Below, in pieces: positions 213 to 20,000 of a stretch of DNA of 20,000 nucleotides; positions within the stretch are counted from its first letter, which is position 1; each line of letters starts with the position of its first letter. The stretch covers positions 49,995 to 69,994 of the forward strand of contig UYFQ01000093.1 of NCBI GenBank assembly GCA_900617105.1, in the 5' to 3' direction. This DNA is from Hydrurus foetidus (taxonomy: Eukaryota). The notes beneath the pieces were generated by a model. The model was not told the DNA's origin. It saw only the letters and a list, made by a program, of their open reading frames with translations, and ran no database searches. A program made the position numbers and the translations under genes.

Positions 213-542
213 TGTTGGAGATATCTTAGTTTATGACACGAACACAATCTGTGTACTTATGCATTCGTACGGACGTACGGATTAGTGTGTGTGTGTGTGT
301 GCGTGCATGCGTGACGACGATGTGTGGACCCGTGCTTCGGCTCGGTACTTCAAGAAGTAGTGTAGGATGTCTTTTGTTGTTGCGTTGAAAGGGACTCGGG
401 GACTTCAGCAGGGATGAAGCACAGTCAATTAACAAGTGATTACTGACAACCCAAAGCTTATTTCACGAGCCTTGACCGAGCGTTCTTCAACCGCTGTACA
501 CTCACCCACGTACGTGTCGGCTGAACCGAAGATCCGTCAACA
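213..542 (+). repeat. Copia 5' LTR (330 bp), includes (GT)8 microsatellite at 285-300
   Basis: Matches 5498-5827 at offset 5285. Terminal inverted repeat TGTTG/CAACA. Confidence 0.97.
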
Positions 543-552
543 TAATTGACTG
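543..552 (+). promoter_or_regulatory. Non-tRNA primer-binding site TAATTGACTG (putative self-priming)
   Basis: Directly abuts the 5' LTR and lacks the usual TGG start. It is the exact reverse complement of CAGTCAATTA at 422-431 inside the LTR. Confidence 0.7.
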
Positions 553-566
553 GAGCAGGCATTCCA

Positions 567-1751
567 ATGCCTCCCAAACGCGCCGCAGAAGCTTTCAAAA
601 GTACAGAGGAGTGTACGCTTCAATACGGCAAACACAACAACATCATAAGATGGAGAGAACACATGCAGACGGTAGTAACCGAGCTATACGGGATAGTGGG
701 CATGTTCTTCTCCACCAACGTGAGATATGAGCTCCCGAGAATTTCATACAGGGATTACCCTGCGGATTCGTCGTCGGAGAGCTCCAGCTCGGATGAGGAC
801 GACGACGACGGGGGCGACGATCAACCACAGCCAGCACCTGACCCAGAGGCCGTAGCGTACGCTGCTGCGAAACCTGCTCGTGTCGCCGCCAGACTGGCGA
901 GAAACGAGAGAAGACGAAAAGCGTCGGAACGTTCGAGAGCGAAGTTTAAGGAGGATGATTATATTCAGAGGAAGAGAGATGTCAAAACGCAACGTGAGAA
1001 CGAACGTACAATGTACCCCATGATGTGGAAGCGTATGTCGCTACTATCGCAGAGTAGGGTGAGGGAGGAGGAAGAGTTCAAGACCGCGTATGACACCCTG
1101 GATTGTGTTCTGCTGTGGACACTCATCAGAAGAACCCACCTCACACACATGTACGGTGGAGACGAGTCACTGCAAGAGTACAACCAACACGAACAGGAGA
1201 GTAAGTACGGGTCAATGAGGCAAGGTGAGAGGGAACATATCGTCACCTTCAAGAACAGATTTGATGAACAGGTAACAGCGAACGCAGCCGTGGGGATCGC
1301 CGCAGTGTCGGAGTCAAAGCGAGCATTGGACTTCCTAGGGAAACTCGACACCCGTCGGTACAAGGTCATGTTGGACGATATGAAGCACGACGCGCTACGG
1401 CGCAAACCGGGTGCGTTCCCCACCACGCTCGCCCTAGCATTCCACATCTCGTCAGAGTGGAATGACCGAGTGCCCGTCCATACACCCACTCCGACACCTG
1501 CGGGTGCGAACGCGGCGTACGTTGCCGAAGGTGCACATGTCACTATGACCAAGGACCCGGCCGAGAAGAAAGCGGGGAAAGCCGGAGGGGGCAGTAAGAA
1601 ATCAATAGCGGATGTGGAGTGTTACAAGTGTGAAACTAAAGGGCACTACGCAAGGGATTGCCCACAAAAGAAATCGTCATCGGAAAAAGTCCACGTCACG
1701 ACGGGGAGTCGGACGAGGAGTACGAAGGTGAATCGAGCGAGTGGGGAGTAG
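567..1751 (+). CDS. gag: Copia Gag (probably fused to Pol; frame break near 1703)
   Basis: First ATG at 567 (MPPKRAAE...). CCHC zinc knuckle CYKCETKGHYARDC at about 1620-1661. MRQGERE..F..RF gag-like motif. Confidence 0.9.
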   Translation: MPPKRAAEAFKSTEECTLQYGKHNNIIRWREHMQTVVTELYGIVGMFFSTNVRYELPRISYRDYPADSSSESSSSDEDDDDGGDDQPQPAPDPEAVAYAAAKPARVAARLARNERRRKASERSRAKFKEDDYIQRKRDVKTQRENERTMYPMMWKRMSLLSQSRVREEEEFKTAYDTLDCVLLWTLIRRTHLTHMYGGDESLQEYNQHEQESKYGSMRQGEREHIVTFKNRFDEQVTANAAVGIAAVSESKRALDFLGKLDTRRYKVMLDDMKHDALRRKPGAFPTTLALAFHISSEWNDRVPVHTPTPTPAGANAAYVAEGAHVTMTKDPAEKKAGKAGGGSKKSIADVECYKCETKGHYARDCPQKKSSSEKVHVTTGSRTRSTKVNRASGE

Positions 1752-4700
1752 CACTTGTGGCTGCAGACGAAGTGTGCTGCTTCTCGCGATTTGACGTGCT
1801 ACTAGACAACGAGGCGTCACTAAATATATTCAGCAATCCTGATTTGCTTACCGACGTTAGAAAGTCCGAGAGAACAATAAAAGTGAGCGGAATTCAACAG
1901 GGAGCGGGAGTGTCAGTCGATCGGGAAGGAGAGTTCGGCGAATTTGGGACGGTGTACTACAGCGGTTCAGCCTCAGCAAATATTCTGTCATTTGCTTCCC
2001 AAGTCGACTCAGGGGCGTCGATTCGGTACGACCACCTGAGCGACTGCTTCACTCTCCAGCCGAAGGGAAGCACGAGGATCTATCGCTTCGGAAGAAAGCG
2101 TGTCGTTGGGAGCGAGGGAAGATTCTATTCCTGTGATTGGAGAGAGATGGAGTGCGGGAGCGCACTTGTCACGACAGTAGTCGAGAATTTAAAGGCATTT
2201 ACGAAACGCGAAATAGAGCAGGGCAGGCGTGCCCGCGAGCTACTGGCCAGAATGGGATTCCCGACGGTAGAACAGGCGATGTCAATCGTCAATAGCGGGA
2301 GCAATTTTGACGTGACAGCAAGAGACTTCCAGATCGCAGACGCGATATGGGGGAAGGACATCGCATCGCTGAAGGGTAAAACAACGAAGAGAGCTACAGC
2401 CGTCGCCGATATAACCGTGAGCACAAAAATCTTACAACGGGATCAGGTGTTATCGATTGACATTATGTTTATAGAGAAATTAGCTATTCTAGTTGGGGTG
2501 GCTACTCCGTTAGGACTAACTATCGCATACAGTCTTAACACAGCTGATCTAAAGAAGCCGGCGAGGACAGCAGGGCAAGTCAAGATCGGCATCAACCATT
2601 TCCTCGGTGTCCTCGCGTCTCAAAACTTTCGGACGTCCATCATCATGAGCGACGGAGAGGGGGCGGTCACCAGCCTTGTCGACGAGTTGGGAAAACTCGG
2701 AGTTGAAGTCGACGTGAGCGGAGCTGGGGGTCACGTGGCTAGAATCGAGAGAAGAATAAGAGTTATTAAAGAAAGGGTACGGGCTCACGTAGCGTACCAC
2801 CTGCCGTTCACCCTGTCGACCGTGGGTATAGCCATGTGTGTACTGTACTGTATATCTAGGCTGAACTACGAACCGGCCGGTTTACGGGGATACGGCCCAA
2901 GTCCCCGCGAGGCGTTTATAGGAAGGAAGCCAGATGGTAAGCGAGATTTTCGTTGTTCGTTTGGCGACTACGCGCAGTGTACCGTACCAAACACAGATGC
3001 AGGACTAGGGAGTCGCACAGAAGACTGCGTGGTGATGCTCCCGCTTGGCAACCGTACAGGGTCCGTGAGAATGCTCTCTCTGAGTACTGGACGACTGGTG
3101 AATAGAGACCAATTTAGAATATTACCGATGCCAGAATCGGTAATCAAGAGGCTTAACGAACTTGCGCTAGCAGACGGGCGTGTGAAAGGTAAAGGTGAGC
3201 TGTACGAGCGACCGTTGTCGTACAAACAGGACGGAGACTCTAGGGGGAATCTACCAGACACGATCGAGCCTACGGTGAACGACGGTGTAGACCCATCCAT
3301 ATTACCGCTAGACGGAGATGAGCATGGGGAAGCGATAGACGAGAGACCGGACAGTGGGGGTGAACCGGTTGAAAACGGGGGTGACTACCGGGATCAGCAG
3401 TACGATAGCGGTGAGACACTGTACGAGCCGAATCAGCTAGACGTAAGCGAGCATCATAGTGAACCAACACATCATGCACACGATACTGAGTCCGACCACG
3501 CAATGGACGACCTGATAGCCAGCATGAACGGCATGCGAGCGGGACCGCATGACGACCACACAAATGAATCTGGAATTGTCGATGAGAGAGGAGTACCGGT
3601 AGACTATGCAGCGGCAAGCGGCGAGTGGGACGACCACACTGATTCGAGGGATGCACTGAGTGGTGCGAATGAGTCACAACCGGCGTATGCGAGTCCTCAA
3701 CGGTACGGACTGAACAAGCATGCAGTGATAGATTTCTTCAGGAACGGAAAAGGGACAGCGCTGCTGACGCGCAACTACGACGGAGACGGTACGGACTGGG
3801 GCGACTACGTGCTCAATATCTCGGTGAACGAAGCGCTGCGCACAAGGGGTGATGCTGCAGTGAGTGTGATAGAGAAAGAGTTACGACAAATGGTTGACAA
3901 AAAGGTGTGGGAACCGGTCGACGTGAAAGAGCTATCGTCGGACGAGAAGCGGCGTATCATCAGGTCGAGTATGTTCCTTAAGGAGAAGTTCCTCGCGAGT
4001 GGTGAGTTCGAGAAGCTGAAGGCACGCCTCGTCGCGGGAGGCGATCAGCAGGATCGTGACCTGTATGATGACCTATCCGCGCCTACTGTTGCGACGTGTT
4101 CAGTGTTCACTCTGCTAAGCATAGCAGCACACGAGACGAGAAGCATCACTGTGATTGATATCAGCGGTGCTTTCCTGAACGCAGATATGACAACAGGACT
4201 ACCTGTACATATGAGGTTGGACAGAAACATGTCGAACATCATGATCAGACTGTCACCGGGATACTCGCGGTTCACAGACCACAAAGGATGCGTGGTGGTG
4301 CGACTAGATAAAGCGCTGTACGGGTGTGTGGAGTCGGCGGCGCTATGGTACGAGAATCTGAGGGTAAGCCTATCGGAACTAGGGTATGTGCCGAATGCGC
4401 ACGACATATGCGTGTTTAACAAGCATGACGAATACGGGGTGCAGTGCACCATCGCCGTACATGTGGATGACCTACTGGTGACTAGCAAGAATGGTGCGAT
4501 GATTGAGTCAGTGGCTAGTGGGCTGAAAAGAAGGTACGGCGATATCACTAGGAAGGATGGACCTGTAGTAAACTACCTAGGCATGGTGTTCGACCTTACC
4601 ACCACAGGTGTTGCACGCGTGTCGATGACCGGCTACGTGGAGGACATGCTCAAGGAAAGCGAGGCGAAGGGGGGTGCGAGGACGCCGGCGACAGAGGGAC

Positions 4701-5431
4701 TGTTCGAAGTGAGAGAGGATGCAGAGATGGCCACCGAGGAGCAGCGTATCAAGTTCCATCGCCTAGTGGCGAAGATGCTGTACCTCGCGAAGCGTGCAAG
4801 ACCGGACTGTCTGACGGCGGTGGCATATTTGGCGACTCGGGTAACTCGGTGCACATCAGACGACCTCGTGAAGCTGGACAGACTGCTCAAGTATGTGAGC
4901 GCGACGAGGGACAGGGGGCTAGTGTTCGCAGCTGGGAGTAAGGGGATCGTAGTGAGTGTACTTATCGATGCAGCGTATGGGGTGCATGCAGACGGGAAGT
5001 CGCACACCGGGAGCTGTGTGGTAATCGGAGAGCGTGGTGCGGTGCATAGCAAGTCAGCCAAGCAGCAGATCGTGACCAAGTCGAGCACGGAGGCGGAGCT
5101 GGTGGCACTATCTGACTCCACTAACCAAGCATTACACGTCAGACATTTTATCATAGGGCAAGGACACGCGTGCGGACCGGTCACCGTGTACCAAGATAAC
5201 ATGTCATGCATGTCGCTTATCGAAAGAGGACGGTCAGCGGCGGAGCGCACCCGCCACATAGCCATCAAGTACTTCTGGCTTAAGGAGAGAGTGGATCAAG
5301 GGGAAGCGAGAGTGAGACACCTTGGGACCAAGGAAATGTACGCGAATCTTCTGACGAAGCCGCTGCAGGGGACACAATTCAAGTGCGAGAGACAGGGGCT
5401 CACGGGCTGGGACGATGAGGCAGTAGTTTAG
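1658..5431 (+). CDS. pol: Copia Pol: protease, integrase, reverse transcriptase, RNase H
   Basis: PR motif VLLDNEAS. IN DDE motifs IDIMF / SDGEG / IERRIR. RT motifs KARLVAGG, DISGAFL, LYGCVESAALWY, HVDD. RNase H motifs IDAAYG, SSTEAE, YQDN, LTKPL. The ORF-track start at 1658 is not a real start; this is the -1 continuation of gag. Confidence 0.95.
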   Translation: MPTKEIVIGKSPRHDGESDEEYEGESSEWGVALVAADEVCCFSRFDVLLDNEASLNIFSNPDLLTDVRKSERTIKVSGIQQGAGVSVDREGEFGEFGTVYYSGSASANILSFASQVDSGASIRYDHLSDCFTLQPKGSTRIYRFGRKRVVGSEGRFYSCDWREMECGSALVTTVVENLKAFTKREIEQGRRARELLARMGFPTVEQAMSIVNSGSNFDVTARDFQIADAIWGKDIASLKGKTTKRATAVADITVSTKILQRDQVLSIDIMFIEKLAILVGVATPLGLTIAYSLNTADLKKPARTAGQVKIGINHFLGVLASQNFRTSIIMSDGEGAVTSLVDELGKLGVEVDVSGAGGHVARIERRIRVIKERVRAHVAYHLPFTLSTVGIAMCVLYCISRLNYEPAGLRGYGPSPREAFIGRKPDGKRDFRCSFGDYAQCTVPNTDAGLGSRTEDCVVMLPLGNRTGSVRMLSLSTGRLVNRDQFRILPMPESVIKRLNELALADGRVKGKGELYERPLSYKQDGDSRGNLPDTIEPTVNDGVDPSILPLDGDEHGEAIDERPDSGGEPVENGGDYRDQQYDSGETLYEPNQLDVSEHHSEPTHHAHDTESDHAMDDLIASMNGMRAGPHDDHTNESGIVDERGVPVDYAAASGEWDDHTDSRDALSGANESQPAYASPQRYGLNKHAVIDFFRNGKGTALLTRNYDGDGTDWGDYVLNISVNEALRTRGDAAVSVIEKELRQMVDKKVWEPVDVKELSSDEKRRIIRSSMFLKEKFLASGEFEKLKARLVAGGDQQDRDLYDDLSAPTVATCSVFTLLSIAAHETRSITVIDISGAFLNADMTTGLPVHMRLDRNMSNIMIRLSPGYSRFTDHKGCVVVRLDKALYGCVESAALWYENLRVSLSELGYVPNAHDICVFNKHDEYGVQCTIAVHVDDLLVTSKNGAMIESVASGLKRRYGDITRKDGPVVNYLGMVFDLTTTGVARVSMTGYVEDMLKESEAKGGARTPATEGLFEVREDAEMATEEQRIKFHRLVAKMLYLAKRARPDCLTAVAYLATRVTRCTSDDLVKLDRLLKYVSATRDRGLVFAAGSKGIVVSVLIDAAYGVHADGKSHTGSCVVIGERGAVHSKSAKQQIVTKSSTEAELVALSDSTNQALHVRHFIIGQGHACGPVTVYQDNMSCMSLIERGRSAAERTRHIAIKYFWLKERVDQGEARVRHLGTKEMYANLLTKPLQGTQFKCERQGLTGWDDEAVV

Positions 5432-5490
5432 ACATTATCTTGTGAAGAATTATGCGTGATGCGTGAACAGTGATGATTGTGATGTGGCAT

Positions 5491-5497
5491 AGGGGTG
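5491..5497 (+). promoter_or_regulatory. Short polypurine tract of the copia element
   Basis: AGGGGTG lies immediately before the 3' LTR TGTTG. Confidence 0.6.
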
Positions 5498-5827
5498 TGT
5501 TGGAGATATCTTAGTTTATGACACGAACACAATCTGTGTACTTATGCATTCGTACGGACGTACGGATTAGTGTGTGTGTGTGTGTGCGTGCATGCGTGAC
5601 GACGATGTGTGGACCCGTGCTTCGGCTCGGTACTTCAAGAAGTAGTGTAGGATGTCTTTTGTTGTTGCGTTGAAAGGGACTCGGGGACTTCAGCAGGGAT
5701 GAAGCACAGTCAATTAACAAGTGATTACTGACAACCCAAAGCTTATTTCACGAGCCTTGACCGAGCGTTCTTCAACCGCTGTACACTCACCCACGTACGT
5801 GTCGGCTGAACCGAAGATCCGTCAACA
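5498..5827 (+). repeat. Copia 3' LTR (330 bp)
   Basis: Copy of 213-542, followed by TSD CTGTG. Confidence 0.97.
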
Positions 5828-5961: not shown

Positions 5962-8900
5962 ATGGTATTATTTGGTCAAATTATTGTAGGGCCTCCAGGA
6001 TGTGGCAAAACAACATACTGTATGGGAATGCAGATGTTCATCGAAGCCGTTGGTAGGAATTGCAAAGTTGTCAATCTAGATTTCGCCAACGACAATCTGC
6101 CATACACTCCAGCCATCGATGTCCGCGAACTCGTATCGTTGGAGGTTCGTCATAAATTAGGAAGACCATAAAGCAATTAGTCACAGTCACAACAAGTTGA
6201 AAGTACTGCTACATATGTTAGCAGTATTCTCTGACAGCTGCTGATGAAACATCTTGTGGAGACTGCTGATCAGAATCGTTAATTCAATGATGCGATGCAA
6301 CTGCTTACCCCGAATCTAAAAGAAAATCTGACAAATCATGCAAATTGCAATCCGAAATCTGATGGTAAAGAACGTCGCTGTGCATCATTAATACACAGAG
6401 AGTAATGGAGGAATTCGAACTGGGTCCTAATGGCGGTCTAGTTTACTGTATGGAGTATCTTCTGGCGAATTTCTCATGGCTGGAGGATCGTCTAAGGGCA
6501 CTGGGAGCACAGTATATTTTATTTGACTGCCCAGGACAAGTAAGTGACGTTTAGATACTAGAGTACTGCAGCTTCAAATACTTCTACGTGAAAGTCTATT
6601 AATTTTCTGTGCTAGAGGATGCGCTGAATTCGATACAGCATTTTTTGTTTTGATTGATGGTTTCAATCGAAGACCTTTCTGGCTGCAGGGCTGGCTATGT
6701 TCGACGAACTGAGACATTCACTGACTTACTGATTGACATACTGACGACTAGAAATAATCTGACTCACCCACTAAATGCATGGCTATGTTCCTCTCTGATT
6801 GGCGCATTGACTGTCTGTCTATCTGTCTATCTATCTGTCTGATGGATAGATAGATAAACACAATGATTAGCTATAGCACGCTGTCTGTTACTGATCACAC
6901 TACATACCTCCCTCACCTCTCTTCCTTTTCAATGTTCCAGGATTATTTATATTTTTATAAGTTAAAACAAGATTTCTAAAGTTAGGTTTCAATCCCAACA
7001 GAATTGCACACTATTTCTATTTCATTCCATGCTATTTCAATTCAATAAAGTTCTTCAATCAATTGATCCATTTCGTTTTATTTTCCATTATTCTATTCCT
7101 AGGTAGAACTGTACACGCACCATACGGTTGTGAAAGATATATTGGATAGATTAAATATTCTCGATTGCCGACTGTGCAGCATACACCTAGTTGACTCATT
7201 CTACTGCTGGTACGTACGTACTTATTGTCCTGACGCACTGTCTTTACTATTTGCTCGTTGATCTGGCTTACGGACATGTTGTTGTGCCGTGCGCTTGCAC
7301 GTACTGATCGACTTAATGATAGCGATAACGCATTTATGGTATGGATGCGATCGATATCAATTGTTCTCAACACTTTCAAAACTCTTGTCCTTCAATGTCC
7401 TGGCAGCAGCACATATTGTCATTTTCTCCTTGATTCCGTTTAACTTTTTAAACACACATTATCAGCACTTGCTATTTTTATCATATTTCCTTTTTCCCGT
7501 CAAATTTCATGTCCCCTCCACAAATGCATTACTGTTCTACTATATCCAGCGAGCCTTCCACTTTCGTCTCTGCCGTTTTGTTGGTGACGTCATCAATGCT
7601 TCGACTCGGACTGCCTCACGTTAACGTTCTTTCGAAAGTACGTATCCGTAACACAATTCTTACGTACCTAACTGATGAAGATAAATGATGGATGAGAAGC
7701 AGCGAGATGACAGCCTGTAGTATCCACAGTCAGTGGTCCAATGACCGTAACTAACCCGTATTGGACAATAAAATGCACATCAAGGTGTTGTTTTTTGGCA
7801 TCAGCATGCACGCTAGCTACTTTCTAGCTGAAGGACTCGTTCTAATGTTTTCAGTTCTCCATTCTCACTCTTTTTTCCTCTGTTTACTGCTGTTATAATT
7901 TACGTATTTCCCACCACTTATCTTTACCGTTTTTTAGATCGATTTACTACCATTATATGGTCCATTACCGTTTAAACTTGATTTTTTTACGGAAATGGTG
8001 GATTTAACAAGATTGGTCAGGTGATTGAATGCACGACTATATTCTCCTAGTACAATGTAACTTCGTAGTTACTTCATCTGTCTTACATTTGATGGAATAG
8101 GATGATTTTTTTATTTACAAATCTGAAGTCGCTATTTTCGAGTTATTTCGTCTTTTTTTCTGTATGTCGCCTATATCGCAAAGCTGTAATTACTGTTTCT
8201 TCATTTACAGAATACAGAACACTTGTCTTTTAAAAGTTATAACATACTTTTAGTGAATTAATGTAATTCAACTTAATACTATGATTGATGTATGTACTGT
8301 ACATGCATGTATCGTTTACGTTACAGGTATATGGATGGCGATATAGGTGCTGAATCTTTGATAGGGGAAGATGATATGTACGATAATAATCACGATGTCG
8401 GTGACGATGATGATAATGAGAATTATTACACCTCAGATAAATACTGTGGTGAAAATGATGATAGTGATAATGATGTGCGTAAGAGTGACAGTGGTAAAGA
8501 CAAAAATATTCATAGCAGCAATACTGACATTTCTAAAAATGGTGATAATGATGACAATAGTGGAAGTGCAGATGTTGGCGACACTGAAATGAAAAATAAA
8601 ATTGATGATACAAGTACCAAAATCGAAAATATAACCCTCAACAAAGATGTGGATCAGAGCATCAAAAACACTGAATTAGCATCTAATATAAAAAAACAAG
8701 CAGTAGTAAAGAGCGCTCAAGAAAGAAGAAAAAAAATGACAGCCGGATTATGCGATGTGCTGAGTGACTATGGGCTCGTTTCTTTTCTTCCCTTGAACAT
8801 CCAGGATGGAGAGGTGATTGATTGATTGAACACGATTTTTGACTTTATCAAATGGACTGTAATCGAGTTAATTGTGTGTGTGTGTGAGGGAGGCAAGTTT

Positions 8901-9551
8901 GAGTCAGACACTGAATTAAAATTCTTCAAATTTGTCTTTATCATTTTCATTTCTCATCCTACCCCCTATTTTTTTGAAACGGTGTCCTATTTATTTTTTC
9001 TTAATTTATCAGACCGTGGGTAGAGTGCTATCAGCTGTCGACAGGGCAAATGGATTCAGGTGCGTACGTGTACACGTACATGCAATATTGACATATTTAC
9101 GCAACAGTTGTTTTCTACTACGCCTTGTATCTTTTTATTTTTTCGCTCGTTTCGGTTCTCCCAACCTGATACGCTCCGATCGCGGACCACATTTTGCCAA
9201 CGAACTCATAGAGAAATTTCGACAATTGAGTTTTTTGCTGTCGATTATTTCGTATTTTGATGTATAACTGGACAGCTTTAGACCGAGCACGTCATTTTAA
9301 AAACGACCCAAACATCTTATTTTTCTCATTTCAGTTTTGCATCAGCTGAGGCACAAGAAATTTTGAAAATCAAAAATCCAACAACTGGATCTCGGAACTC
9401 AAATCACGAATCTAACACTAATTCCGTAAGTCATTTATTTAAGATAGCTTCTCAACAACTCGAAACAACGTATTCAAGAAGTTTGGAAATTTCCGAGAAA
9501 TACGAATCTCTTCCTAAGTATCAGATTTTAACTTCTAAAAAATTTGTTTGA
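5962..9551 (+). CDS. GPN2: GPN-loop GTPase 2, 8 exons: 5962-6144, 6399-6539, 7103-7209, 7550-7637, 7938-8020, 8327-8813, 9013-9059, 9335-9551 (450 aa)
   Basis: Hand-spliced at GT..AG junctions with consistent phases (1353 nt). P-loop [17 protein letters not shown] (GPP form typical of GPN2). GPN loop [13 protein letters not shown]. Further motifs [42 protein letters not shown]. Confidence 0.92.
6811..6857. repeat. TCTR microsatellite followed by inverted GATA units in GPN2 intron 2
   Basis: ctgtctgtctatctgtctatctatctgtct gatggatagatagata. Confidence 0.6.
9136..9219 (+). pseudogene. Relic fragment of a gypsy integrase catalytic core in GPN2 intron 7
   Basis: Translates as [26 protein letters not shown], which aligns with IGRYGAPKFLRSDNGSHFVNKILEEF of the integrase at about 18245-18322. 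Confidence 0.8.
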
Positions 9552-10398
9552 AGAGTCATATAAGTTTTACAGATAACTTCGGATATGAAATAAATATCGG
9601 TATGACAAATACTATTGCACTCCACCACATCTTGATTTTACCGAGCGTTGTCAGGAGCTGTTATCTACGGTACTACCTATTATGGATGACTTCGGTTGAA
9701 ATTATTTTCATCGGAAATATCAGCATTTTATCAGAGGAATCAAATTGAATTCAGGGGCAGGGGGGTACATCGATATGTTTGTGTTCTCATTAAGGACGTA
9801 CCAACTTACAGTAAGTATCATTCGGTCGTTTTGATGTTAGATCAACCTGAAACTCCTCGAAGATAACTCTGCGATTGTATAGGCGCGCTTTCCTATACGC
9901 TCAAAAGTCTCTAGTGGGAGGAGTTTGCGAAACTAGTTTGGACTTACAATTACTTGATAAAGAAATATGAGAGTTGCAGTGGAATACTCTATCTATTTCT
10001 TATGGAATGAAGATGTGCGTTGCACTCATCGTCTAAATCGCACCTGATCGTTTGGATATCCTTCATCCACGTCACGATACATTCAACTGTCCTACGATAG
10101 CCACAATTTGTGGATAGTTGAGATCATCACTTCAACAGGATTCCGTATCCTCCATCCGGTACACTTGTACGTGGGGATACCGTGAATTCGGCGGCGGAGT
10201 ATTATCTAACATAATCGCGTAGCCTCCTCCGGGAAAGTCATCCAGCATCGGAACCCAGCCTCGCGAACCAACATTTTTTTCAAAATCATCTTTCTTCCTT
10301 TGTTTGCCGATTCGATTCGGGATTCGAATCTCTACCAGCTCATAATTAATTGGGTCACAGAAAAAGAAGCACATAACATCATGAAGTCATCTGAGAAC

Positions 10399-10621
10399 TG
10401 TGACGCCGTGATGTTATCGGGAGTTCTGTGGTCGTCTGGGGGACCTTGGTCCCAGTTCCGACCTAGACTACCCAGATTTCGTAGACCTCTGGGTAGGACT
10501 CTGGGTAGGCTTCTAGGTTAGCCACATACACTTATCCTACACCTTCTCCACTCAGTTTCGTAGTAAGCTAACCAGCATTCTCCCTCGCACCATCTTTAGC
10601 CCAGATTCCTTCTAGGCCACA
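10399..10621 (+). repeat. Putative 5' LTR (223 bp) of an older gypsy element
   Basis: Starts TGTGAC and ends TAGGCCACA. Shares TGTGAC, GTAAGCTAACCA, AGCCCAGA and TAGGCCAyA, in the same order, with the 217-bp LTR of the young gypsy. The partner LTR is not in the window. Confidence 0.75.
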
Positions 10622-10720
10622 GTGACGTCACTCAACCGTTTCAATTCCCTCTTTTCGTCTTCTATAACCCTACCCCCTTTGTCATTTTCATCTCCTTGAG
10701 ATAACTGCTCGAATCCCGAC

Positions 10721-11185
10721 GTGGAGGACTTCCAGAAAGTTCCTCTCCTCAGAGATCGTCTTTATCTTGAAGAGCTTCGTCTTATCAACGAAGAACTACA
10801 GTTACGGAGAGATAAAACTCCCGTAGAAGGAGAGGCAGCAGTCGTTTCGACTGGCCAAAATCTCCCAACTTTCGTTGAAACTTCGATTCCTCAACCGAGA
10901 AGTCGTTCCAGAGTCGTAAGACCTGTGCTCCTTCGGGAAGACACGAGTTCATCGCGATTTGCCACCTCTAATCTCCATCCTACTCCTTCCACACGCCAAA
11001 CACAACCCCGATTCAATTCGGCGACTTCAGCTTTTAAGCCTAGGAGACCGACTTCCAAGTCGAGAACACCCTTTCCAGGGCCTCATGCGACTTTAGTCAG
11101 CAGTGAAACAGGGTTTGCAACTCAAACCTTGCGAAATTTGTTGCTGGACAACGATTTCCTGACAGAATTCCCAGTTTCAGTTTGA
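10721..11185 (+). CDS. Unassigned R/S/T/P-rich ORF in the leader of the older element
   Basis: 154-codon open frame with a GTG start and no recognisable motif. Confidence 0.25.
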   Translation: MEDFQKVPLLRDRLYLEELRLINEELQLRRDKTPVEGEAAVVSTGQNLPTFVETSIPQPRSRSRVVRPVLLREDTSSSRFATSNLHPTPSTRQTQPRFNSATSAFKPRRPTSKSRTPFPGPHATLVSSETGFATQTLRNLLLDNDFLTEFPVSV

Positions 11186-11510
11186 GAAACTGCGCCGAGA
11201 AAAAACTCGCACTTTCGTTCGGAGTTAAACTCCAACTTCAGCCTAGGCTCCGCGGGGATTATAAATACATCCGGGGATTATATCCTGTTGAAGCACCTCC
11301 CGCTTCTAACGAGGTGCCGAAAAAGCTCCGAAAATAAATCCTACATTACGAGTAGGAAATCTCGATAGAATTGCTCCTTTGACAAGGAGAAAGTCGAAGA
11401 TAGCCCTCCTCCGTGCTGCAGCGACTCCACTCTCAGCAGTGAGAACACCCTTGACCGGGCCAAAAGTCTTGAAACCCATTTTGAAATTGGTGACAAAATC
11501 ACCCTCCATC

Positions 11511-12109
11511 ATGGAAGACATAGTTGACCAGTTTGGCTCCAGTCCTGGTGACTTTGGCGAAGAGTTAGGTGAGATAGTTGATTCTAACTATGCCGAACTC
11601 TCTGACAACGAACTCGTTGACGAATTTCTCTCCGAGCCCGGTGCTTTACAGCAATCATCGGAGACAAATCCATCGCAAATAGCACTTTTAAGTGCTATAA
11701 CTGATGTGACAATCCAAGTTTTACCTGTGCCTACTATTACTAGAGCACAACAACTCGAGAACCTTTTTTATACACGCATGTCTGGTGGTATTAACTTGTA
11801 TAGTGCACTTGTTGTACTCGATTCATTCTAAATTTCGGGTGAATTAGCCTTGAAATTTCAAACTCAAGCGAATGCTTTTGCAAATAACTTTACTTTAAGT
11901 CAAGTAATAGTTTATCCTGCAACTGAGATCATTCAATTTGCTTTTGCAAGTGATCCCAAATTTACTATTCTTACGAAAGATAAATTTGCGATGTGGCTTG
12001 AACACGTTACAGTCGCTCAGGCTGCCCAAATTGTCACAAAGTTCTTTGGTGCTAAATCCGACATTGGTAGAACACTAGTAGAGAGTTTTTCTCAAATTCC
12101 TATTAGATT
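11511..12109 (+). pseudogene. gag: Older-element gag, 5' part (in-frame TAA at 11829-11831)
   Basis: ORFs 11379 and 11850 are in the same frame, separated by one stop. First ATG at 11511. The frame is cut at the LTR. Confidence 0.65.
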
Positions 12110-12326
12110 TGTGACCCGCACAGCTGTACAGCTGTACGGGTACAGGCGTACGTTCGGTTCGGATCGGGGACGATCCGAGCCATCCGATTCATGACTTGCC
12201 TATCGCTGTGTTTATCTGTAAGCTAACCACATCTCTTTAGCAATAGCACCAGCACACCAGCTGCCTTCCCCTTGCCCACGCGCCCCGTTCCATCAGACCC
12301 ACCGCTGAGCCCAGAGTTAGGCCATA
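12110..12326 (+). repeat. Gypsy 5' LTR (217 bp, TG...TA; 215 bp if read as TG...CA)
   Basis: Matches 19380-19596 at offset 7270. Confidence 0.95.
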
Positions 12327-12875
12327 ATACTAGTATTTGGACCAACTTGGTGCTCTTTTTAGAGACCAGTTCCAAAACGCTTCCCAAAAACATCGCCACG
12401 ACCCGTAAAACGGCGTGCAAACAAGCTAGTAACTTGGCAACAAGTGAAAACAACGTCGAAAGACACTACAAAGGCTACGTCTAACCGACAGCCTCTGAAA
12501 CGCTTTAGTTAAAAAGCTCGAGTCGTCGATATTTTCGCGACAAAATCGTGACGGCTTCAAAACTCGAAGCCTAACGAAGCAAGTAGCTCTGAGTCGAGCA
12601 AAAGCAAGTCCCATCGTTAGAGAAACGAAAGCTGGCCAAAACGCCCGCAGTTTAGCTCCTTGAGAGGTTCAAAACGCCAGGCAACTTTTCGAGCGATTTC
12701 CGACGAAATCGCGCGAAAGTAAACCACCAACAGCTCCGTCAGTTAAAGGATCCTACGATCCCACGACATCATAGCTGCGGGATCACATCCTCAGCTCCAT
12801 AGAGAGCCGCGTCCGAGTTCCGTCGCTGTCCAAGACCCCAAGATCAAGACGTTTCCAACTCAAGACAAAAGTCCC

Positions 12876-15402
12876 ATGACAAGGGCCCAAATAAAGAAGA
12901 AAGCGGCTGCTAACGCAGCCGCCTCTGCTTCTTCAGCTCCAAGCGCTTCGCGCAGTGCTCCTCTCACTGAGAAGGAGAAGCACAAAGCGGAGCAGGCCCT
13001 TGTAAAGCAAAACATCGAGAAATCGATACAGGCTCTGGCCAAAGAAGCAATACATGTTTCGGCTACCCCAACTCGTCTTGAGGACGAACAAATTTTCTTC
13101 CAAAGCGTCTTAGCAGCAACAAAAGAAATGCAAGCAGCTCACAAGCTAGAGCAAGCACAAATAGCTGCTGCACAAGCTGCTGCCGACGCTTTAGAACCCT
13201 CAAACGACGAGCTCCTCGGGTTGGCACCCGAGGAAGCCGAGGGCGAGACAGACTCCCCCTCGATACCCGCGGGTACCTAAAAAGAGGGGGAGAAACCTCG
13301 ATACTCCCTCCGCGACTGCAACAGATCGGTGCAGAGGACGATCTGTTCGAACCATCAGTCGACGCCAAAGTCACAACAAAAAAGGCATCCGACACCGGCA
13401 AGGCCGAGGCCGACGCCGAGTCAGATCCGGAGGCTGACGCCGACGGTGACGACAATGCCAACAACAACGACGACGACAAACCCCCGACGAGTCCGACGAC
13501 GACAACGACAGTAACGTCGACGACGTTAACGACACGGGAGGCGATGGTGGCAACCCCGACAGCTCCTCCGACGAGTCCGACGCAAGTAGTGGCGACGGGG
13601 ACGACGGAGAGGGTGACGGGGACGACGACGGGAACGACAACAGCGACGACGATGAGGCGAAAGCTGAAGTCGAAGTCGAAGACGACGAGGAGGTCGAACC
13701 CGAAAAGTCTAAGCCCAAGGACAAGAAGTCCCTTAAGATAAAACCCCTCGCCAAGAAAAAGTCCCCAAAGGCGGGTCCCAAACCCGCCCCAAAGGACAAA
13801 AAGGTGAAAACCAAAGCCGATGCCAAATCCGGTAAAACACACCGCGCGCAAAAGGCGGAAAACTCGGAAGAGGATTCCCCTCCACAACGCAAAGCGGGTT
13901 TGCAAACCTCCATCATCAACATGAAGGAGGCGTACTACCTCACTCGAGAAAAACTTCTCGACGACGCTGATAAAGCAGCAAGAGCGTTTTACGAACAAGC
14001 ATACCGCCCCGGTATGTTAACCAGTTGGGAAATGCTAATCGAAATGGATGCCATCCAAACGATCCGCGACCAGTTGCTTCGATGCAAAAGCGAGACAGGT
14101 TACAACACCAAGACTTGTCTCGCCTGGCCAACGGTCGAAGGCAAAACGTTAACGTTAAAGAACATTGCAAATGATCTTAAAAAGATCTTTTACAAAAACA
14201 AACGTACGTCTTCCCATTTCGACTTCGAAATGAAGTTGAAGAATTGCAAATTCCGCATCAGCTGGAAAGATCCTTCTGTTGAAGACAGAGCTCTCTCTGA
14301 GTTCCGTGACATCCTACTCGGATTCTGGACGTCATACGACAATATCGATGCCGACATGCAAAATGATATCTGTAAGGCCTTCTACAAGAAGCTGCCAAAG
14401 AACAACAAGTTTACAGACAATTTCATGGCAAAGACAAAACGTAAGACGAAAAAGACCGGGAAAGATACCATCTTCAAAATGCTCACGCGTCTTGTCGTCA
14501 TGCTGGGCGAAGCACGCCAGATGATCAAAGACGCGGAGGACATGGGAGGTCTCGACTTCGTCTTCGAGTCAAAGCTCACGCCAACCGACCAAGACGACGC
14601 TGAGGTCGCACCTCACCGTGACAGCCACTCGGCTAACGCCTACAAGGCAATCCCAAAACGTCAGGTGGACCCTGAGTCGTCCGGCCTCAGCCGGGCGACC
14701 AACTTCTGTCACACCTGTGGCAAAAAGGGACACAACCGTTACGAATGCCAAAACCACATGAACCCTCACTGCAACCGTAGCCATCGCACTTGGTCGCAGT
14801 CTGAGGAGGCAAAGGACTTCAAACGGATTGGTCACGAATTCTTCGTACCAAATGTGTACATCAACGGGGAACTTACCCGGGACACCAACAACCCCGGGGC
14901 AGCTACCTACGTGTACCCATCTGACGATGTGGAGAACGACTTCTCTCCTCCAGGGAGAGCCCAAGACGACCGTCCGACCAAGAAACAAAAGCTGGCCACC
15001 AACAACAACACCAAGTACAACAAGTACAAGAGCAACCAGACTCAACCGGATAGGGACAACGATCGTTCTAACACGAACAAGTTGAGCTCCAACTACAAGG
15101 GAAAAAGTAAGTCACAACTTGCTAACCCAAGTACGGACATAATCGAGTACGCTCGAGAATTACCGTCAATGAAACAACTTCTATCAGCTGTATTAACTGA
15201 AAACATAGATGATTTCTTACAAGTTCACATATCTCTACCACAGATCCGATCGCAAATTTCAAACCAAGTCGCGACCGACCTGACGATCGCAGGGACAACT
15301 CGCACCAGGCGGAGAGCAAGGAGGGGGACAGACACAAATCTTCCTCTCTTCCTCCTCCTCCTCCAACCAATACGTACCAAACTAGAGGCATGGAAGCCCT
15401 AG
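12876..15402 (+). CDS. gag: Gypsy Gag with long acidic/low-complexity N-terminus (two -1 frame breaks at about 13257 and 13483)
   Basis: MTRAQIKKKAAA... continues through D/G-rich and K/P-rich frames into the 13804 ORF. Zinc knuckle CHTCGKKGHNRYEC at about 14707-14748. Confidence 0.8.
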
Positions 15403-15812
15403 CCCAAATCGACACTGGATGTCAAGTCGGGGACGTCATCAACGGTAGAGTCCTTCGGGGCCTCCGTGGCAAAACCCACTTGAGGAAATCCGACTCACCC
15501 ATGTGGATGTGTAGTGGCTTAAATAATCAATGTGTAGAATCTACAAATGTGCTTGATATTGTTGTATCATTTAATAAAGACGATTTAAAACACACTTTTA
15601 GTCTTCCTGTCCGAGTAGCTCCGGAGTCAAAAGTCGACCTAATCTTAGGATTACAGACTATAAAAAATTTAAATTTGGTAAAAATAATACCAGAGTTCTT
15701 CCAGAACCTCGATAAAATAACGCCTAGTGCGATACCAGCTTCACCGCTAAAAAACAAAGGGTGTCGTTCTCGGCTGAGGACGATGCACAAGTACCACACA
15801 CGGTACTCATAG
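15390..15812 (+). CDS. pol: Aspartic protease domain of gypsy Pol
   Basis: ALAQIDTGC catalytic motif and DLILGL motif. Confidence 0.9.
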   Translation: MEALAQIDTGCQVGDVINGRVLRGLRGKTHLRKSDSPMWMCSGLNNQCVESTNVLDIVVSFNKDDLKHTFSLPVRVAPESKVDLILGLQTIKNLNLVKIIPEFFQNLDKITPSAIPASPLKNKGCRSRLRTMHKYHTRYS

Positions 15813-15968
15813 ACACCGAACTACCCCCGAGGTAATATCAGCCGAATCAGCGTCAGCAGACACAATCCAAACGGAAATTCCTTTACCGTTACTAACGGAA
15901 AAGGACACTGTCCAAAAGGAAAGTAAAATAGCTGACCCAGGGTCCCCACTACCTCCTGGCATTTTGTC

Positions 15969-17969
15969 ATGGAGGGCATAAATCCCTCGACTACAGACTT
16001 TCCCCGGCAGGATAACCTGGTAGCTCGAGGTGCTTGTACACACAAGACTTGCAACTCTTCATGCGGGTGTTCTACAAGCTCAGCGACGGCAGTTGCTCAG
16101 CTTGCTTCCGATGAGTCCATACTACGCACCACCAATTTGACAACACTAGTGTTGCCACTTCCGCGTCAGAATGGATCTGGTGTAAAAACCAAAAGGCGTA
16201 AGAGAGTAGCTACTCTTACACCCTCATCCATAACACCAACCGAAACGCGTGGTATTGCGGCAGCTCTACTTAGGGAGGAAGACGAAGACCTCCCTGAGGT
16301 TCGGTCTTTCCGTGATAAGGAAGGGATCGACTACAAGTCGAAGGATACCTTCGCTCCTTTTCAAGACAATCAAAACAACGATTCGATGTACTTAATTGAT
16401 TTAATACATATCGATGGTACACCAACTGAGATTGCCGAAATTAAAGCGATTTGCATAAAACACAAATCGCTTTTCAAAAACGAGCTGGGTCCAGAACCCG
16501 CTCGAATTCCCCCTTTCGATTTCAAAAAGGTAAACATACCTCAATGGAAACACTTCCGTAATCGGGGTGCTCCCAGAGTCGCTTCAACGATGCGACAAGA
16601 GGAAATCAGGAAACAAATCGTAGCAATGCTCAAAAAGGGAATAATAAAACCATCCGATGCCTCATATTACTCCCAAGTAATACTTGCAAATAAACCAGAC
16701 GGTTCACTCCGATTCTGCATAGATTACAGGAACCTCAATGAGGCAACCGAATCTGCAAGTTGGCCGATCCCAAATATAAAACAAATGTTATACAGACTTG
16801 GCGCGCAACGGCCAAACGTATTCGGCGTAATCGACCTTACGGCCGGATACCACCAAGCCCCAATAACACTGGCGGCACAAGTATTTACCGCATTTATAAC
16901 ATTTATGGGTATATACCAATTCACACGACTACCATTCGGTCCCAAGATGGCCCCATCATACTTTCAACAGATGATGGCGTCAATAGTACTACTTGGCCTG
17001 ATATACAGCATCTGTGAAGTCTATTTAGACGACATCATCATATATGCTGATGGACACATCCAATTCTGTGAACGTTTAGAAACATTGTTTCAACGTCTAG
17101 AAGATAAAAACATTTCACTCAAGGCTGCAAAGCTAAGACTTAACGTCAAAGTAGTTGAATATGTTGGTAGACAAATATCTAAGGAAGGTATATCAATGAG
17201 CTCCAAAAAGATAACGGGTGTGACTGACTTTCCGATGCCAAGAAAGACAACTGAACTACGTTCGTTCCTCGGTCTCACCAATTACTTTAGGGATCATGTA
17301 CCAAATCACTCAAATGTGGTAGCACCGCTACACAAAATGATAGATCACGCCGCCAAAAAGCAAACATTGCTTGTCTGGACAGACGAAGCGGCCGACGCGT
17401 TTACGTTAGTCAAAGATCTTATCTCCAAGAGTCCCTTATTATATTTCATCGACGATGTAGCACCTATTACCCTCATGACAGATGCGTCTGACTACGGTAT
17501 AGGTGGTTATTTATATCAAGAAGTCGACGGAGTCAAACAACTCGTCGCTCTCGTAAGCAAATCTCTTACCAAGACCCAGTTGAAATGGTCCGTAATACAA
17601 AAAGAGGCTTACGCCCTTTACTTTTGCTGTGACTATCTCGACGCCCTGCTACGAGATCGTAAGTTTACTATCCTGACCGATCACAAAAATCTTACTTTCC
17701 TGCACAAGGATAAAAATGAGATGGTCGGAAGATGGCGCTGTGCGCTACAGGAATTAGATTTTACGATAGGGTATATCCCTGGGAAAAATAATGAAGTCGC
17801 TGACGCAATGTCACGCCTATGTAAAAACAAGATGCCGAAACACATCATAACAGCAATCCTAACTTGCAAACCGCTTGCAGCGGAAATATATGCATACTTA
17901 ATGCGTGTCCACAACTCTACCGTTGGGCACGGAGGATTCAATCGCACTTTGCGAAACCTAAAAAAATAG
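15969..17969 (+). CDS. pol: Reverse transcriptase + RNase H of gypsy Pol
   Basis: RT motifs LRFCIDYRNLN, IDLTAGYHQ, RLPFG, YLDD. RH motifs TDASDYGIGG, KEAYA, TDHKNL, NEVADAMSR. Confidence 0.96.
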   Translation: MEGINPSTTDFPRQDNLVARGACTHKTCNSSCGCSTSSATAVAQLASDESILRTTNLTTLVLPLPRQNGSGVKTKRRKRVATLTPSSITPTETRGIAAALLREEDEDLPEVRSFRDKEGIDYKSKDTFAPFQDNQNNDSMYLIDLIHIDGTPTEIAEIKAICIKHKSLFKNELGPEPARIPPFDFKKVNIPQWKHFRNRGAPRVASTMRQEEIRKQIVAMLKKGIIKPSDASYYSQVILANKPDGSLRFCIDYRNLNEATESASWPIPNIKQMLYRLGAQRPNVFGVIDLTAGYHQAPITLAAQVFTAFITFMGIYQFTRLPFGPKMAPSYFQQMMASIVLLGLIYSICEVYLDDIIIYADGHIQFCERLETLFQRLEDKNISLKAAKLRLNVKVVEYVGRQISKEGISMSSKKITGVTDFPMPRKTTELRSFLGLTNYFRDHVPNHSNVVAPLHKMIDHAAKKQTLLVWTDEAADAFTLVKDLISKSPLLYFIDDVAPITLMTDASDYGIGGYLYQEVDGVKQLVALVSKSLTKTQLKWSVIQKEAYALYFCCDYLDALLRDRKFTILTDHKNLTFLHKDKNEMVGRWRCALQELDFTIGYIPGKNNEVADAMSRLCKNKMPKHIITAILTCKPLAAEIYAYLMRVHNSTVGHGGFNRTLRNLKK

Positions 17970-19174
17970 GGAAAGTATGGGAAGGCATGAGACACGATAT
18001 AAGAGCATACATTAAACAATGCCCGTGTTGCCAAAAGATGTCTGCTGACAAACAAAAACCCGTCACCCATCGTTTCACAACATCAACATATGCACCTATG
18101 GAATGCATAAACATAGACTTTATTGGTCCATTCCCGGATAAAGGATACATCCTTGTTATGGTAGACACCTTCACAAGGTTTGTCGAACTATCAGCCACAA
18201 CTGATAATACTGCAAAATCAGCCGTAACAGGCCTAATAGAACACATCGGTCGCTACGGAGCTCCCAAATTCCTGCGATCCGATAACGGTTCCCATTTCGT
18301 AAACAAAATCCTCGAGGAATTTGTAAAAGTTGCCGGTACAACACACAACCTTATTCTACCATACTCTTCGCAAGAAAACTCGATAGTAGAGCGTATGAAT
18401 AAGGAAATTAACCGACACATCACGGCATTTACATTTGACCGTGCAACTACGGAAAACTACCGAGAAATTTTACCATTCGTACAACGAATTATAAATACGA
18501 CATTCAACGTACGGACACAGTCAACAGCAGCAAAGCTTATATACGGCAATGCTATTGACCTTGATGCCAACATCCTTCTCCCTCGAGATGAGATAAACTT
18601 AGACATGGCTCATGTCACCCATTCTACTGAGAAAATTATGCAGATGCAAGATGAACTCATCAGAATCACTGCTGAACTACTCAAAGAAGCGGACGAGAAA
18701 CGAAAAGCAGGCGGTTCCACCGACTACACAACGTTCGAAATCGACTCGTTGGTACTGGTTACCCACCGCACATCAAAACCAACACGCATGCACACTTTAT
18801 GGAAAGGTCCCATGCAAGTGGTCGCAAACGATCTCGACGAGTATACACTACTCGATCTTATTACCAACCGCGAAAAAAGATACCATGTATCAAATATTAA
18901 ACAATTTGAGTTTGACCCTACAAAGGTCAACCCAACCGATATCGCCCGACGAGATTATCTCGAATTCTTTATCGAAGATATCCTAGCAATGGAAGGGAAC
19001 ATCCGAGTGGTGGGAACATTAAAGTTTCACGTCAAGTGGCTAAATTATCCCCACGACAGAAACACTTGGGAACCGTGGAAAAACATGCGTGACGCTGAAA
19101 AAGTCCACGAGTTCTTAATTGCTAAAAACCTAAAACACTTGATTCCAAGTAAATTTGCTGCAAATTATCGTTAA
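17864..19174 (+). CDS. pol: Integrase with GPY/F-like motif and C-terminal chromodomain (real frame from about 17966)
   Basis: HHCC motif split by the frame break (HNSTVGH...CPCC). DDE motifs IDFIGP, SDNG, ENSIVER. LWKGPMQV. Chromodomain FFIEDIL...FHVKWLNYPHDRNTWEP at about 18962-19120. Confidence 0.95.
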   Translation: MQTACSGNICILNACPQLYRWARRIQSHFAKPKKIGKVWEGMRHDIRAYIKQCPCCQKMSADKQKPVTHRFTTSTYAPMECINIDFIGPFPDKGYILVMVDTFTRFVELSATTDNTAKSAVTGLIEHIGRYGAPKFLRSDNGSHFVNKILEEFVKVAGTTHNLILPYSSQENSIVERMNKEINRHITAFTFDRATTENYREILPFVQRIINTTFNVRTQSTAAKLIYGNAIDLDANILLPRDEINLDMAHVTHSTEKIMQMQDELIRITAELLKEADEKRKAGGSTDYTTFEIDSLVLVTHRTSKPTRMHTLWKGPMQVVANDLDEYTLLDLITNREKRYHVSNIKQFEFDPTKVNPTDIARRDYLEFFIEDILAMEGNIRVVGTLKFHVKWLNYPHDRNTWEPWKNMRDAEKVHEFLIAKNLKHLIPSKFAANYR

Positions 19175-19364: not shown

Positions 19365-19375
19365 AAAGAGAGGGG
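19365..19375 (+). promoter_or_regulatory. Polypurine tract of the gypsy element
   Basis: AAAGAGAGGGG, 4 nt before the 3' LTR. Confidence 0.85.
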
Positions 19376-19379
19376 CCAT

Positions 19380-19596
19380 TGTGACCCGCACAGCTGTACA
19401 GCTGTACGGGTACAGGCGTACGTTCGGTTCGGATCGGGGACGATCCGAGCCATCCGATTCATGACTTGCCTATCGCTGTGTTTATCTGTAAGCTAACCAC
19501 ATCTCTTTAGCAATAGCACCAGCACACCAGCTGCCTTCCCCTTGCCCACGCGCCCCGTTCCATCAGACCCACCGCTGAGCCCAGAGTTAGGCCATA
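19380..19596 (+). repeat. Gypsy 3' LTR
   Basis: Copy of 12110-12326, followed by GATT. Confidence 0.95.
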
Positions 19597-19943
19597 GATT
19601 CAACTTCTCTCATCGAGCACTTGAAAGAGAAACATTCGTCGCGATGAAATCGTTAACACCCGATTACTCCATCGTTGAACCAATCACTCAGGCACAGCAT
19701 GCTGCCTTTATAGTTACGATTGAGAAAAAGTTAAAACCGTATAGTCAATTGAGAACTGATTATTTCGAGAGAAAGAAAGCAAATCCTACTCAAGGTGAAA
19801 CTTGGAAGGATGCTTACACACGCTTTGTAAAGTGCATTGCGTCCGTTCGCGAACTAAACGAGCATATTGCACGATATGGCAGTATGACCTCAGACAATGA
19901 ACTTGCTCTGAGGTCCTTGTCAGTCCAGCATATTCATGCATGA
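19597..19943 (+). pseudogene. gag: Older-element gag, 3' part
   Basis: RFNFSHRALERE...IEKKLKPYSQL...YTRFVKCIASVRELNEHIARYG aligns by eye with young Gag FRISWKDPSVEDR...FYKKLPKNNKF...LTRLVVMLGEARQMIKDAEDMG. It stops before any zinc knuckle. Confidence 0.7.
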
Positions 19944-20000
19944 TCTGTTAGCATAGTTTCATCTGTAGATTAGCATTCACATGTCACAAGTAGTGTAGCG

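What the first reader, a model, noticed from the sequence alone, without database searches (positions are those of the whole stretch)
12326..12337. Perfect 12-bp palindrome occupies the PBS position of the young chromodomain gypsy
Seen: the last LTR base plus the next 11 nt read AATACTAGTATT, a perfect palindrome, extendable to CCA[T]AATACTAGTATTTGG with one bulge. There is no tRNA-like PBS and no complement elsewhere in the LTR. The related older element has a different perfect 12-mer at the equivalent position (10621-10632), so symmetry is conserved while sequence is not. The chance is about 4^-6 per site. Inference: tRNA-independent priming in which the PBS pairs with itself, by fold-back or between the two packaged genomes, possibly coupling dimerisation to priming. 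This differs from the Tf1 5'-end mechanism. From memory, palindromic self-priming has been proposed computationally for a few gypsy groups; I know of no mechanistic work.
Basis: partly seen in the sequence, partly recalled or inferred. Interest (0 to 1): 0.85.

Follow-up and report, generated by a model that had tools for sequence, protein, structure and literature searches.

The report
Self-pairing primer site in algal retrotransposons
This jumping gene and dozens of related families carry a short self-complementary sequence, different from family to family, exactly where such elements normally bind a host tRNA to start copying themselves, so two copies of the element's own RNA likely pair there and prime each other, a route that is still untested in the lab.

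Summary
Confirmed and general. The 12-mer at 12326-12337 starts at the last base of the 5' LTR of a chromodomain Ty3/gypsy element (identical 217-nt LTRs) in a probably chrysophyte genome. Of 14 circular relatives, 10 show a 12-bp palindrome in a fixed window (0.26 expected). Of 30 relatives read from LTR into gag, 27 have a perfect 10-16-bp one and 3 (one family) break only the outer pair. Across 56 families there are 31 different palindromes, no TGG site and no Tf1-type complement. The two innermost pairs, which a hairpin could not form, changed about 29 times and stayed complementary. This favours pairing between two RNAs over fold-back. Best reading (0.55): the RNA dimer is cut at the duplex edge and one RNA primes the other. 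Cleavage and priming are inferred. The older element shares only LTR motifs, not proteins. A similar site is in print for fungal GalEa copia elements (PMC5445492) without a mechanism. This scan found the feature before in at least eight reports on other genomes.

The parts
12326..12337 (+). 12-bp perfect palindrome at the primer-binding-site position; its first base is the last LTR base
   Evidence: sequence; same register in relatives
12110..12326 (+). 5' LTR of the young gypsy element, 217 nt, TGTG...CATA
19380..19596 (+). 3' LTR, identical to the 5' LTR; its end marks where minus-strand DNA began, give or take end trimming
   Evidence: meaning follows from the standard LTR replication scheme
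12106..12109 (+). target-site duplication GATT, left copy
   Evidence: empty site read in other runs
19597..19600 (+). target-site duplication GATT, right copy
19365..19375 (+). polypurine tract, 4 nt before the 3' LTR
   Evidence: sequence
12338..12378 (+). leader stretch predicted to fold on itself or, alternatively, onto the end of the LTR; not conserved in relatives
13450..15402 (+). gag-like frame with a weak zinc-knuckle match
   Evidence: PF13917, E 0.0023, below cut-off
15213..15812 (+). frame with a DTG motif, likely the protease; ends in a stop
   Evidence: no Pfam match; role inferred from motif and place
15936..17969 (+). reverse transcriptase and RNase H; YLDD and the RNase H acidic motifs are present
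   Evidence: best solved relatives are Ty3 proteins 7q5b and 4ol8
17825..19174 (+). integrase with C-terminal chromodomain, in another frame than RT
   Evidence: PF00665, PF00385
10399..10621 (+). likely 5' LTR of the older element into which the young one inserted, 223 nt, TGTG...CACA
   Evidence: motifs shared with the young LTR; read depth rises near 10400; no second copy in the window
10621..10632 (+). second, different 12-bp palindrome in the same register
10700..12109 (+). broken orphan reading frame of the older element; continues at 19601 after the insertion
   Evidence: P0260 runs across the insertion point

Best explanation
The element belongs to a clade of chromodomain Ty3/gypsy retrotransposons in which a 10-16-base palindrome starting at the last LTR base stands where the tRNA site should be, and two packaged copies of the RNA likely pair through it so that one, once cut, would prime DNA synthesis on the other. 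Shown: position, symmetry, turnover of sequence, absence of TGG and Tf1-type sites. Inferred steps: (1) the two genomic RNAs anneal antiparallel over the palindrome, probably helped by the Gag zinc knuckle; (2) one strand is cut near the 3' edge of the duplex, most simply by the element's RNase H as reported for Tf1; (3) the new 3' end lies next to the partner's LTR end and RT copies U5 and R from there; (4) the primer is trimmed on its 5' side or plus-strand synthesis stops after the palindrome. Because one DNA strand of the site is copied from the template and the other from the primer, a mutation would be mirrored to the other arm in one cycle, which would explain why changes come in complementary pairs and lengths change by even numbers.
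For: 10 of 14 exact circles have a 12-mer starting with A after a pyrimidine 120-520 nt past the LTR start, 0.26 expected from shuffles. 27 of 30 LTR-to-gag junctions chosen without regard to palindromes have a perfect one. LTR ends fixed by divergence of two copies fall at the first A in the window, L052, L067/L068 and L086, and at a contig end in L070. 31 distinct palindromes, 12 distinct central 4-mers, lengths 10, 12, 14, 16 only, in 56 families. 43 two-sided changes at the five inner pairs on the integrase tree, 29 of them at the two innermost. The duplex stops at the LTR end: the next pair out is complementary in 12 of 56. Alone, 20 of 21 12-mers form no hairpin but all form self-duplexes of -5.6 to -19.3 kcal/mol. 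Two distant relatives outside the clade have TGG-type sites (L146, L020). RNase H cleavage of an RNA duplex in Tf1: title of Levin 1996 seen in a reference list.
Against: No experiment or RNA data; no run holding the stretch is on record as RNA. All-AU duplexes are weak (-5.6 to -7.4 kcal/mol). No fold-back relic of an untrimmed primer: the longest perfect symmetry at 61 junctions is 18 bp, so step 4 has no trace. No within-family mirror variants were seen; the call that could show them did not complete. Two families break the outer pair (L021 family, L024). 29 of the 59 fetched junctions were picked for having a palindrome, so the pair counts lean towards symmetry. A dimer signal alone would give the same covariation.
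Confidence: 0.55

Rival explanations
1. The palindrome is only a dimerisation or packaging signal, like a retroviral dimer initiation site, and the primer is something else (a host small RNA, a tRNA fragment binding elsewhere, or a protein).
For: Full symmetry including the centre is what a dimer signal needs. Palindromes are proposed to mediate Ty1 and Ty3 dimers (PMC4974528, PMC5371799 passages).
Against: The site is pinned to the LTR's last base whatever its length, which priming needs and dimerisation does not. Retroviral dimer sites come in addition to a PBS and sit in a loop (PMC5445492 section 11). No other primer site is seen: TGG within +1..+6 in 0 of 56.
Confidence: 0.17
2. The primer is a free short RNA of the same 10-16 bases cut out of another copy of the element's RNA, by the element or by host RNA processing, not one arm of a packaged dimer.
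For: Fits every sequence result above and needs no stop signal for plus-strand synthesis, which fits the lack of fold-back relics.
Against: Needs two cuts and packaging of a very short, weakly binding RNA (duplex energies). No small-RNA data.
Confidence: 0.12
3. One RNA folds back on itself at the palindrome, is cut after it, and primes on its own U5.
For: The 61-nt stretch 12300-12360 folds as one long hairpin capped by the palindrome centre (-17.8 kcal/mol, z -2.67). LTR-end/leader pairing reaches p<=0.05 in 9 of 54 families, 2.7 expected.
Against: Loop bases need not be complementary, yet the central four are in 56 of 56 families, and 0 of 14 circles have an outer-pairs-only site in place of a full palindrome. 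The 96-nt fold prefers another structure and the older element has no long stem; the young element's own p is 0.09.
Confidence: 0.09
4. A host tRNA, whole or halved, primes here after all.
For: TGG follows the palindrome in the young element (12338). The host's tRNA set could not be searched (no genome).
Against: Priming at 12338 would carry the palindrome into the 3' LTR, which ends at 19596. TGG directly after the palindrome in 3 of 54 families. 31 different sites cannot all match one conserved tRNA segment.
Confidence: 0.05
5. The palindromes are chance or an assembly artefact.
For: The relatives come from short-read assemblies in which LTRs are collapsed.
Against: 10 of 14 against 0.26 expected; two sites in the window itself; 3' LTR copies followed by host DNA show no palindrome (L052, L067, L068, L086).
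Confidence: 0.02

Closest known systems
Conserved Hairpin Site of fungal GalEa Ty1/copia elements (PMC5445492; sections 10 and first part of 11 read)
   Same: No tRNA site; a 10-bp palindrome that includes the last A of the 5' LTR; proposed to act as the PBS, mechanism unknown.
   Different: Copia, not gypsy. Two sequences cover 85% of families there, against 31 sequences in 56 families here. The downstream complement CHSeq2 is absent here (2 of 56 reach 8 of 9, as for other families' leaders).
Tf1/Tf2/Tj1 and Tf1-sushi self-priming chromoviruses (PMC4600332, PMC6317226; passages read)
   Same: Chromodomain Ty3/gypsy elements without a tRNA site; the element's own RNA is the primer.
   Different: There the PBS pairs with the 5' end of the same RNA inside the LTR and is not palindromic. 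Here the longest complement in the own LTR is no longer than in other families' LTRs.
Repbase notes on Thalassiosira pseudonana Gypsy families (recalled, not seen in any call)
   Same: As I recall, they describe self-priming by a 12-bp palindrome at the start of the internal portion.
   Different: Could not be checked: not found by searches, and the diatom paper PMC2806351 has no 'palindrom' in its main text (supplement not readable). I recall no clade-wide covariation or mechanism.
Skipper elements of dictyostelids (PMC5006619; passages read)
   Same: Chromodomain gypsy elements with neither TGG site nor LTR complement; a novel self-priming is suspected.
   Different: Their site is a polypyrimidine stretch, not a palindrome.
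Retroviral dimer initiation sites and Ty1 PAL sequences (PMC4974528, PMC5445492; passages read)
   Same: Palindromes that pair between two packaged RNAs.
   Different: They exist beside a tRNA site and away from the LTR end.

Membership tests
Ty3/gypsy LTR retrotransposon with chromodomain | pol order RT, RNase H, integrase | tested here: met
   Ty3 proteins are the best solved relatives
Ty3/gypsy LTR retrotransposon with chromodomain | two LTRs, target-site duplication, polypurine tract | tested here: met
   ends are TG...TA rather than TG...CA, as in 9 of 56 families
Ty3/gypsy LTR retrotransposon with chromodomain | chromodomain at the integrase C-terminus | tested here: met
   PF00385, E 1.5e-09
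Named chromovirus clades (Tf1/sushi, Tcn1, GyDi, Skipper) | placement in an RT tree with named references | not testable with these tools
   no reference sequences of these clades were on hand; the trees hold only unnamed relatives
Tf1-type self-priming | PBS complementary over about 10 or more bases to a stretch of the own 5' LTR | tested here: not met
   0 of 51 families reach 10; best 9 in one family; same spread as against other LTRs; 4 nt in the young element
Tf1-type self-priming | primer released by RNase H cleavage | not testable with these tools
   needs biochemistry; the RNase H motifs are present
tRNA-primed LTR elements | TGG within a few bases of the LTR end | tested here: not met
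   0 of 56 families
tRNA-primed LTR elements | match to an internal part of a host tRNA (half-tRNA priming) | not testable with these tools
   no host genome; no tRNA gene in the window
GalEa Conserved Hairpin Site | palindrome that includes the last A of the 5' LTR | tested here: met
   54 of 56 families perfect, 2 with the outer pair broken
GalEa Conserved Hairpin Site | second complementary 9-mer 12-41 nt downstream | tested here: not met
   2 of 56 reach 8 of 9, against 64 of 3080 cross-family comparisons
GalEa Conserved Hairpin Site | Ty1/copia domain order | tested here: not met

The most novel reading that the evidence does not exclude
A third way to start reverse transcription in LTR elements, beside tRNA priming and Tf1-type cis priming: the two packaged genomes prime each other through a palindrome, so that dimerisation and priming are one step, and the copying itself mirrors each mutation to the other arm. 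It would serve a large protist gypsy clade and may have arisen separately in GalEa copia elements.
Probability: 0.45. Interest if true: 0.85.

Novelty: new variant of a known kind. Interest (0 to 1): 0.62.

Why it matters
How LTR elements without a tRNA site start reverse transcription is open outside the Tf1 group; papers on GalEa and Skipper say that no model fits. Here 56 natural variants fix the position, length range and edge preferences of the site and separate two-molecule pairing from fold-back. They give a simple genetic test by co-packaging two complementary mutants. If true, such elements would not depend on host tRNA, would escape control by tRNA fragments, and would be missed by annotation tools that require a tRNA site.

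Tried and rejected
No whole genome was held, so no survey of families or tRNAs in this host. A single-protein scan of viral contigs found nothing. A DNA motif shared by the two LTR ends gave 17 matches in viral contigs, none followed by a palindrome and all taken as chance. No RNA holder was listed; this is no evidence on expression. Variants inside the palindrome were not among the 40 of 165 differences shown, and the closer look did not complete. Rfam gave two matches far below cut-off in 10300-12800. The Helenus paper PMC10886601 (first sixth of the text and passages) has no mention of palindromes or self-priming. The dimer fold pairs the palindrome centre between molecules in 48 of 58 windows against 27 of 118 controls, but this follows largely from the symmetry itself and is not counted as support. 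Candidate palindromes in distant loci L158, L161, L165 have no fixed LTR end and were left out of the counts. The older element's protein has only near-identical database relatives and no Atlas hit. Searches found no paper that describes palindromic priming in gypsy elements; the library lacks most subscription journals and Repbase.

Full report
Observation. Both palindromes are in the sequence at the stated places. The young element has identical 217-nt LTRs at 12110-12326 and 19380-19596, a purine tract before the 3' LTR and a GATT duplication. Pfam finds RT, RNase H, integrase and a chromodomain in gypsy order, and Ty3 proteins are the best solved relatives. Pol is split by stops and a frame change. 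Other runs show the empty site, so the insertion is recent or polymorphic. The neighbouring host gene is a GPN-loop GTPase; among hits that name an organism the best are chrysophytes (Mallomonas, Ochromonadaceae), so the host is probably a golden alga. The window alone allows two LTR ends, 12324 or 12326. Relatives decide for 12326 (below).

Relatives. Scans with alignments of RT and integrase homologs gave 148 loci (the metagenome scan returned the best 80 of 250 confirmed and covered 28 of 64 parts of the collection). Two sets were chosen without looking at palindromes. First, 14 contigs are exact circles and must hold the LTR-to-leader junction. In a fixed window 120-520 nt after the automatically chosen LTR start, 10 of 14 have a perfect 12-mer that starts with A after a pyrimidine, against 0.26 expected from dinucleotide shuffles. 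Of the four misses, L039 has one outside a mis-chosen window, L070 has a 10-mer, and L021 and L073 break only the outer pair. The 14 are 12 families. Second, of 62 loci with at least 450 nt after integrase, 30 run on into a gag-like frame. Of these, 27 have a perfect palindrome (25 of 12 bp or more; two lay just outside that script's window and are) and 3 are the L021 family. Of the other 32, twelve without a curated site were read by eye: two turned out to be junctions (L024, L082), three seem to run into host DNA and seven end early or are unclear.

Register. The LTR end was fixed without the palindrome in five cases: the window, L052, L067 with L068, L086 (copies diverge there) and L070 (contig ends there). 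In each the palindrome begins at the last LTR base. In the other families the end is inferred from the palindrome and a CA or TA before it. Two distant loci with their own LTR pairs, L146 and L020, have TGG-type sites and lie outside the 56-row group that holds all curated sites with an integrase (SH-aLRT 99, quick tree with long-branch warnings).

Variation. The curated set has 61 junctions in 56 families: 42 of 12 bp, 6 of 10, 4 of 14, 2 of 16, and 2 with a broken outer pair; 31 distinct sequences; 12 distinct central 4-mers. Of the 59 fetched junctions 29 were picked because they had a palindrome, so these counts describe diversity, not frequency. On the integrase tree, 45 rows in the 12-bp register need 43 two-sided changes at the five inner pairs, 29 of them at the two innermost, and 2 one-sided changes at the outer pair; length changes 10 times, always by an even number. 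The edges are constrained: AAT or AGT starts 50 of 56. The pair just outside is complementary in 12 of 56, about chance.

Other primer types. TGG lies within six bases of the LTR end in 0 of 56 families. The TGG at 12338 cannot be the site, because priming there would put the palindrome into the 3' LTR. No family has a Tf1-type complement of 10 bases in its own LTR (0 of 51). The GalEa downstream complement is absent. Half-tRNA priming could not be tested without the host's tRNAs, but 31 sequences do not fit one tRNA segment.

Mechanism. A hairpin needs a loop of at least three unpaired bases, so it gives no reason for the centre to stay complementary. A duplex of two molecules does. Alone, 20 of 21 12-mers form no hairpin but all form self-duplexes. 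The duplex ends exactly at the LTR end, where minus-strand synthesis must start. I therefore read the site as a primer site served by a second copy of the RNA. The 3' end would come from a cut near the duplex edge; RNase H is the simplest candidate by analogy with Tf1 (known to me from the literature; only titles seen). The two families with a broken outer pair keep the inner ten bases and have extra pairs further out, which would fit a primer ending at +10. Since the two DNA strands of the site are copied from template and primer, a mutation would appear on both arms of a heteroduplex and could be fixed as a new palindrome in one step. All of this is inference. Against it: no RNA data, weak all-AU duplexes, no fold-back relics (longest symmetry 18 bp at 61 junctions), and a long hairpin is possible in the young element, with mild excess of LTR-end/leader pairing in the clade (9 of 54).

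The older element. Its likely LTR shares length, ends and two motifs with the young LTR. Its reading frame matches no fetched locus, has two near-identical database relatives without Pfam families and no Atlas hit. It may be a non-autonomous partner of the clade; this is untested, as its far end lies outside the window.

What is known. PMC5445492 (sections 10 and first part of 11 read) describes a palindrome that includes the last LTR A in fungal GalEa copia elements and says that no model fits. PMC4600332, PMC6317226, PMC5006619, PMC4974528, PMC5371799, PMC6934838, PMC3601003, PMC4558846 and PMC2806351 were seen as passages; none of these passages describes palindromic priming in gypsy elements. 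I recall Repbase notes proposing it for T. pseudonana Gypsy families; no call confirms this, and the supplement of PMC2806351 could not be read. Nine paper searches found nothing closer. Earlier reports of this scan describe the same feature in other genomes; I did not check them and do not count them as support.

Verdict. Real, clade-wide and not explained by known priming routes. The element is an ordinary chromodomain gypsy; the site is a new variant of self-priming with precedent at the level of description. Interest 0.62.

Noticed in passing
window 543-552 and 422-431: The copia element at 213-5827 (identical LTRs, duplication CTGTG) has no TGG next to its LTR; the ten bases after the 5' LTR are the exact complement of 422-431 in its own LTR. 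This is a candidate Tf1-type self-primer in a copia element.
   Followed up: partly
window 10399-12109 and 19601-20000: The older element encodes an orphan protein with no Pfam or Atlas match behind an LTR like the gypsy's; possibly a non-autonomous partner carrying a cargo gene.
   Followed up: partly
window 12323-12326 and relatives: 9 of 56 families end the LTR in TA instead of CA; assembly pieces suggest both forms in the young family.
   Followed up: partly
window 12114-12181: The start of the young LTR holds a 28-nt near-perfect inverted repeat and a second hairpin; many relatives also have palindromes near the LTR start.
   Followed up: no
window 15810-15935 and about 17960: Pol of the young element has stops and a frame change despite identical LTRs; real damage or sequencing error was not resolved.
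   Followed up: no
window 5962-9070: Host GPN-loop GTPase gene in several exons, starting about 135 nt after the copia 3' LTR and ending before the nested elements.
   Followed up: partly
L101-L165: 65 loci of this eukaryotic retrotransposon clade and more distant relatives lie in records titled as bacterial or archaeal genomes from metagenomes, which points to eukaryotic contamination of those bins.
   Followed up: no
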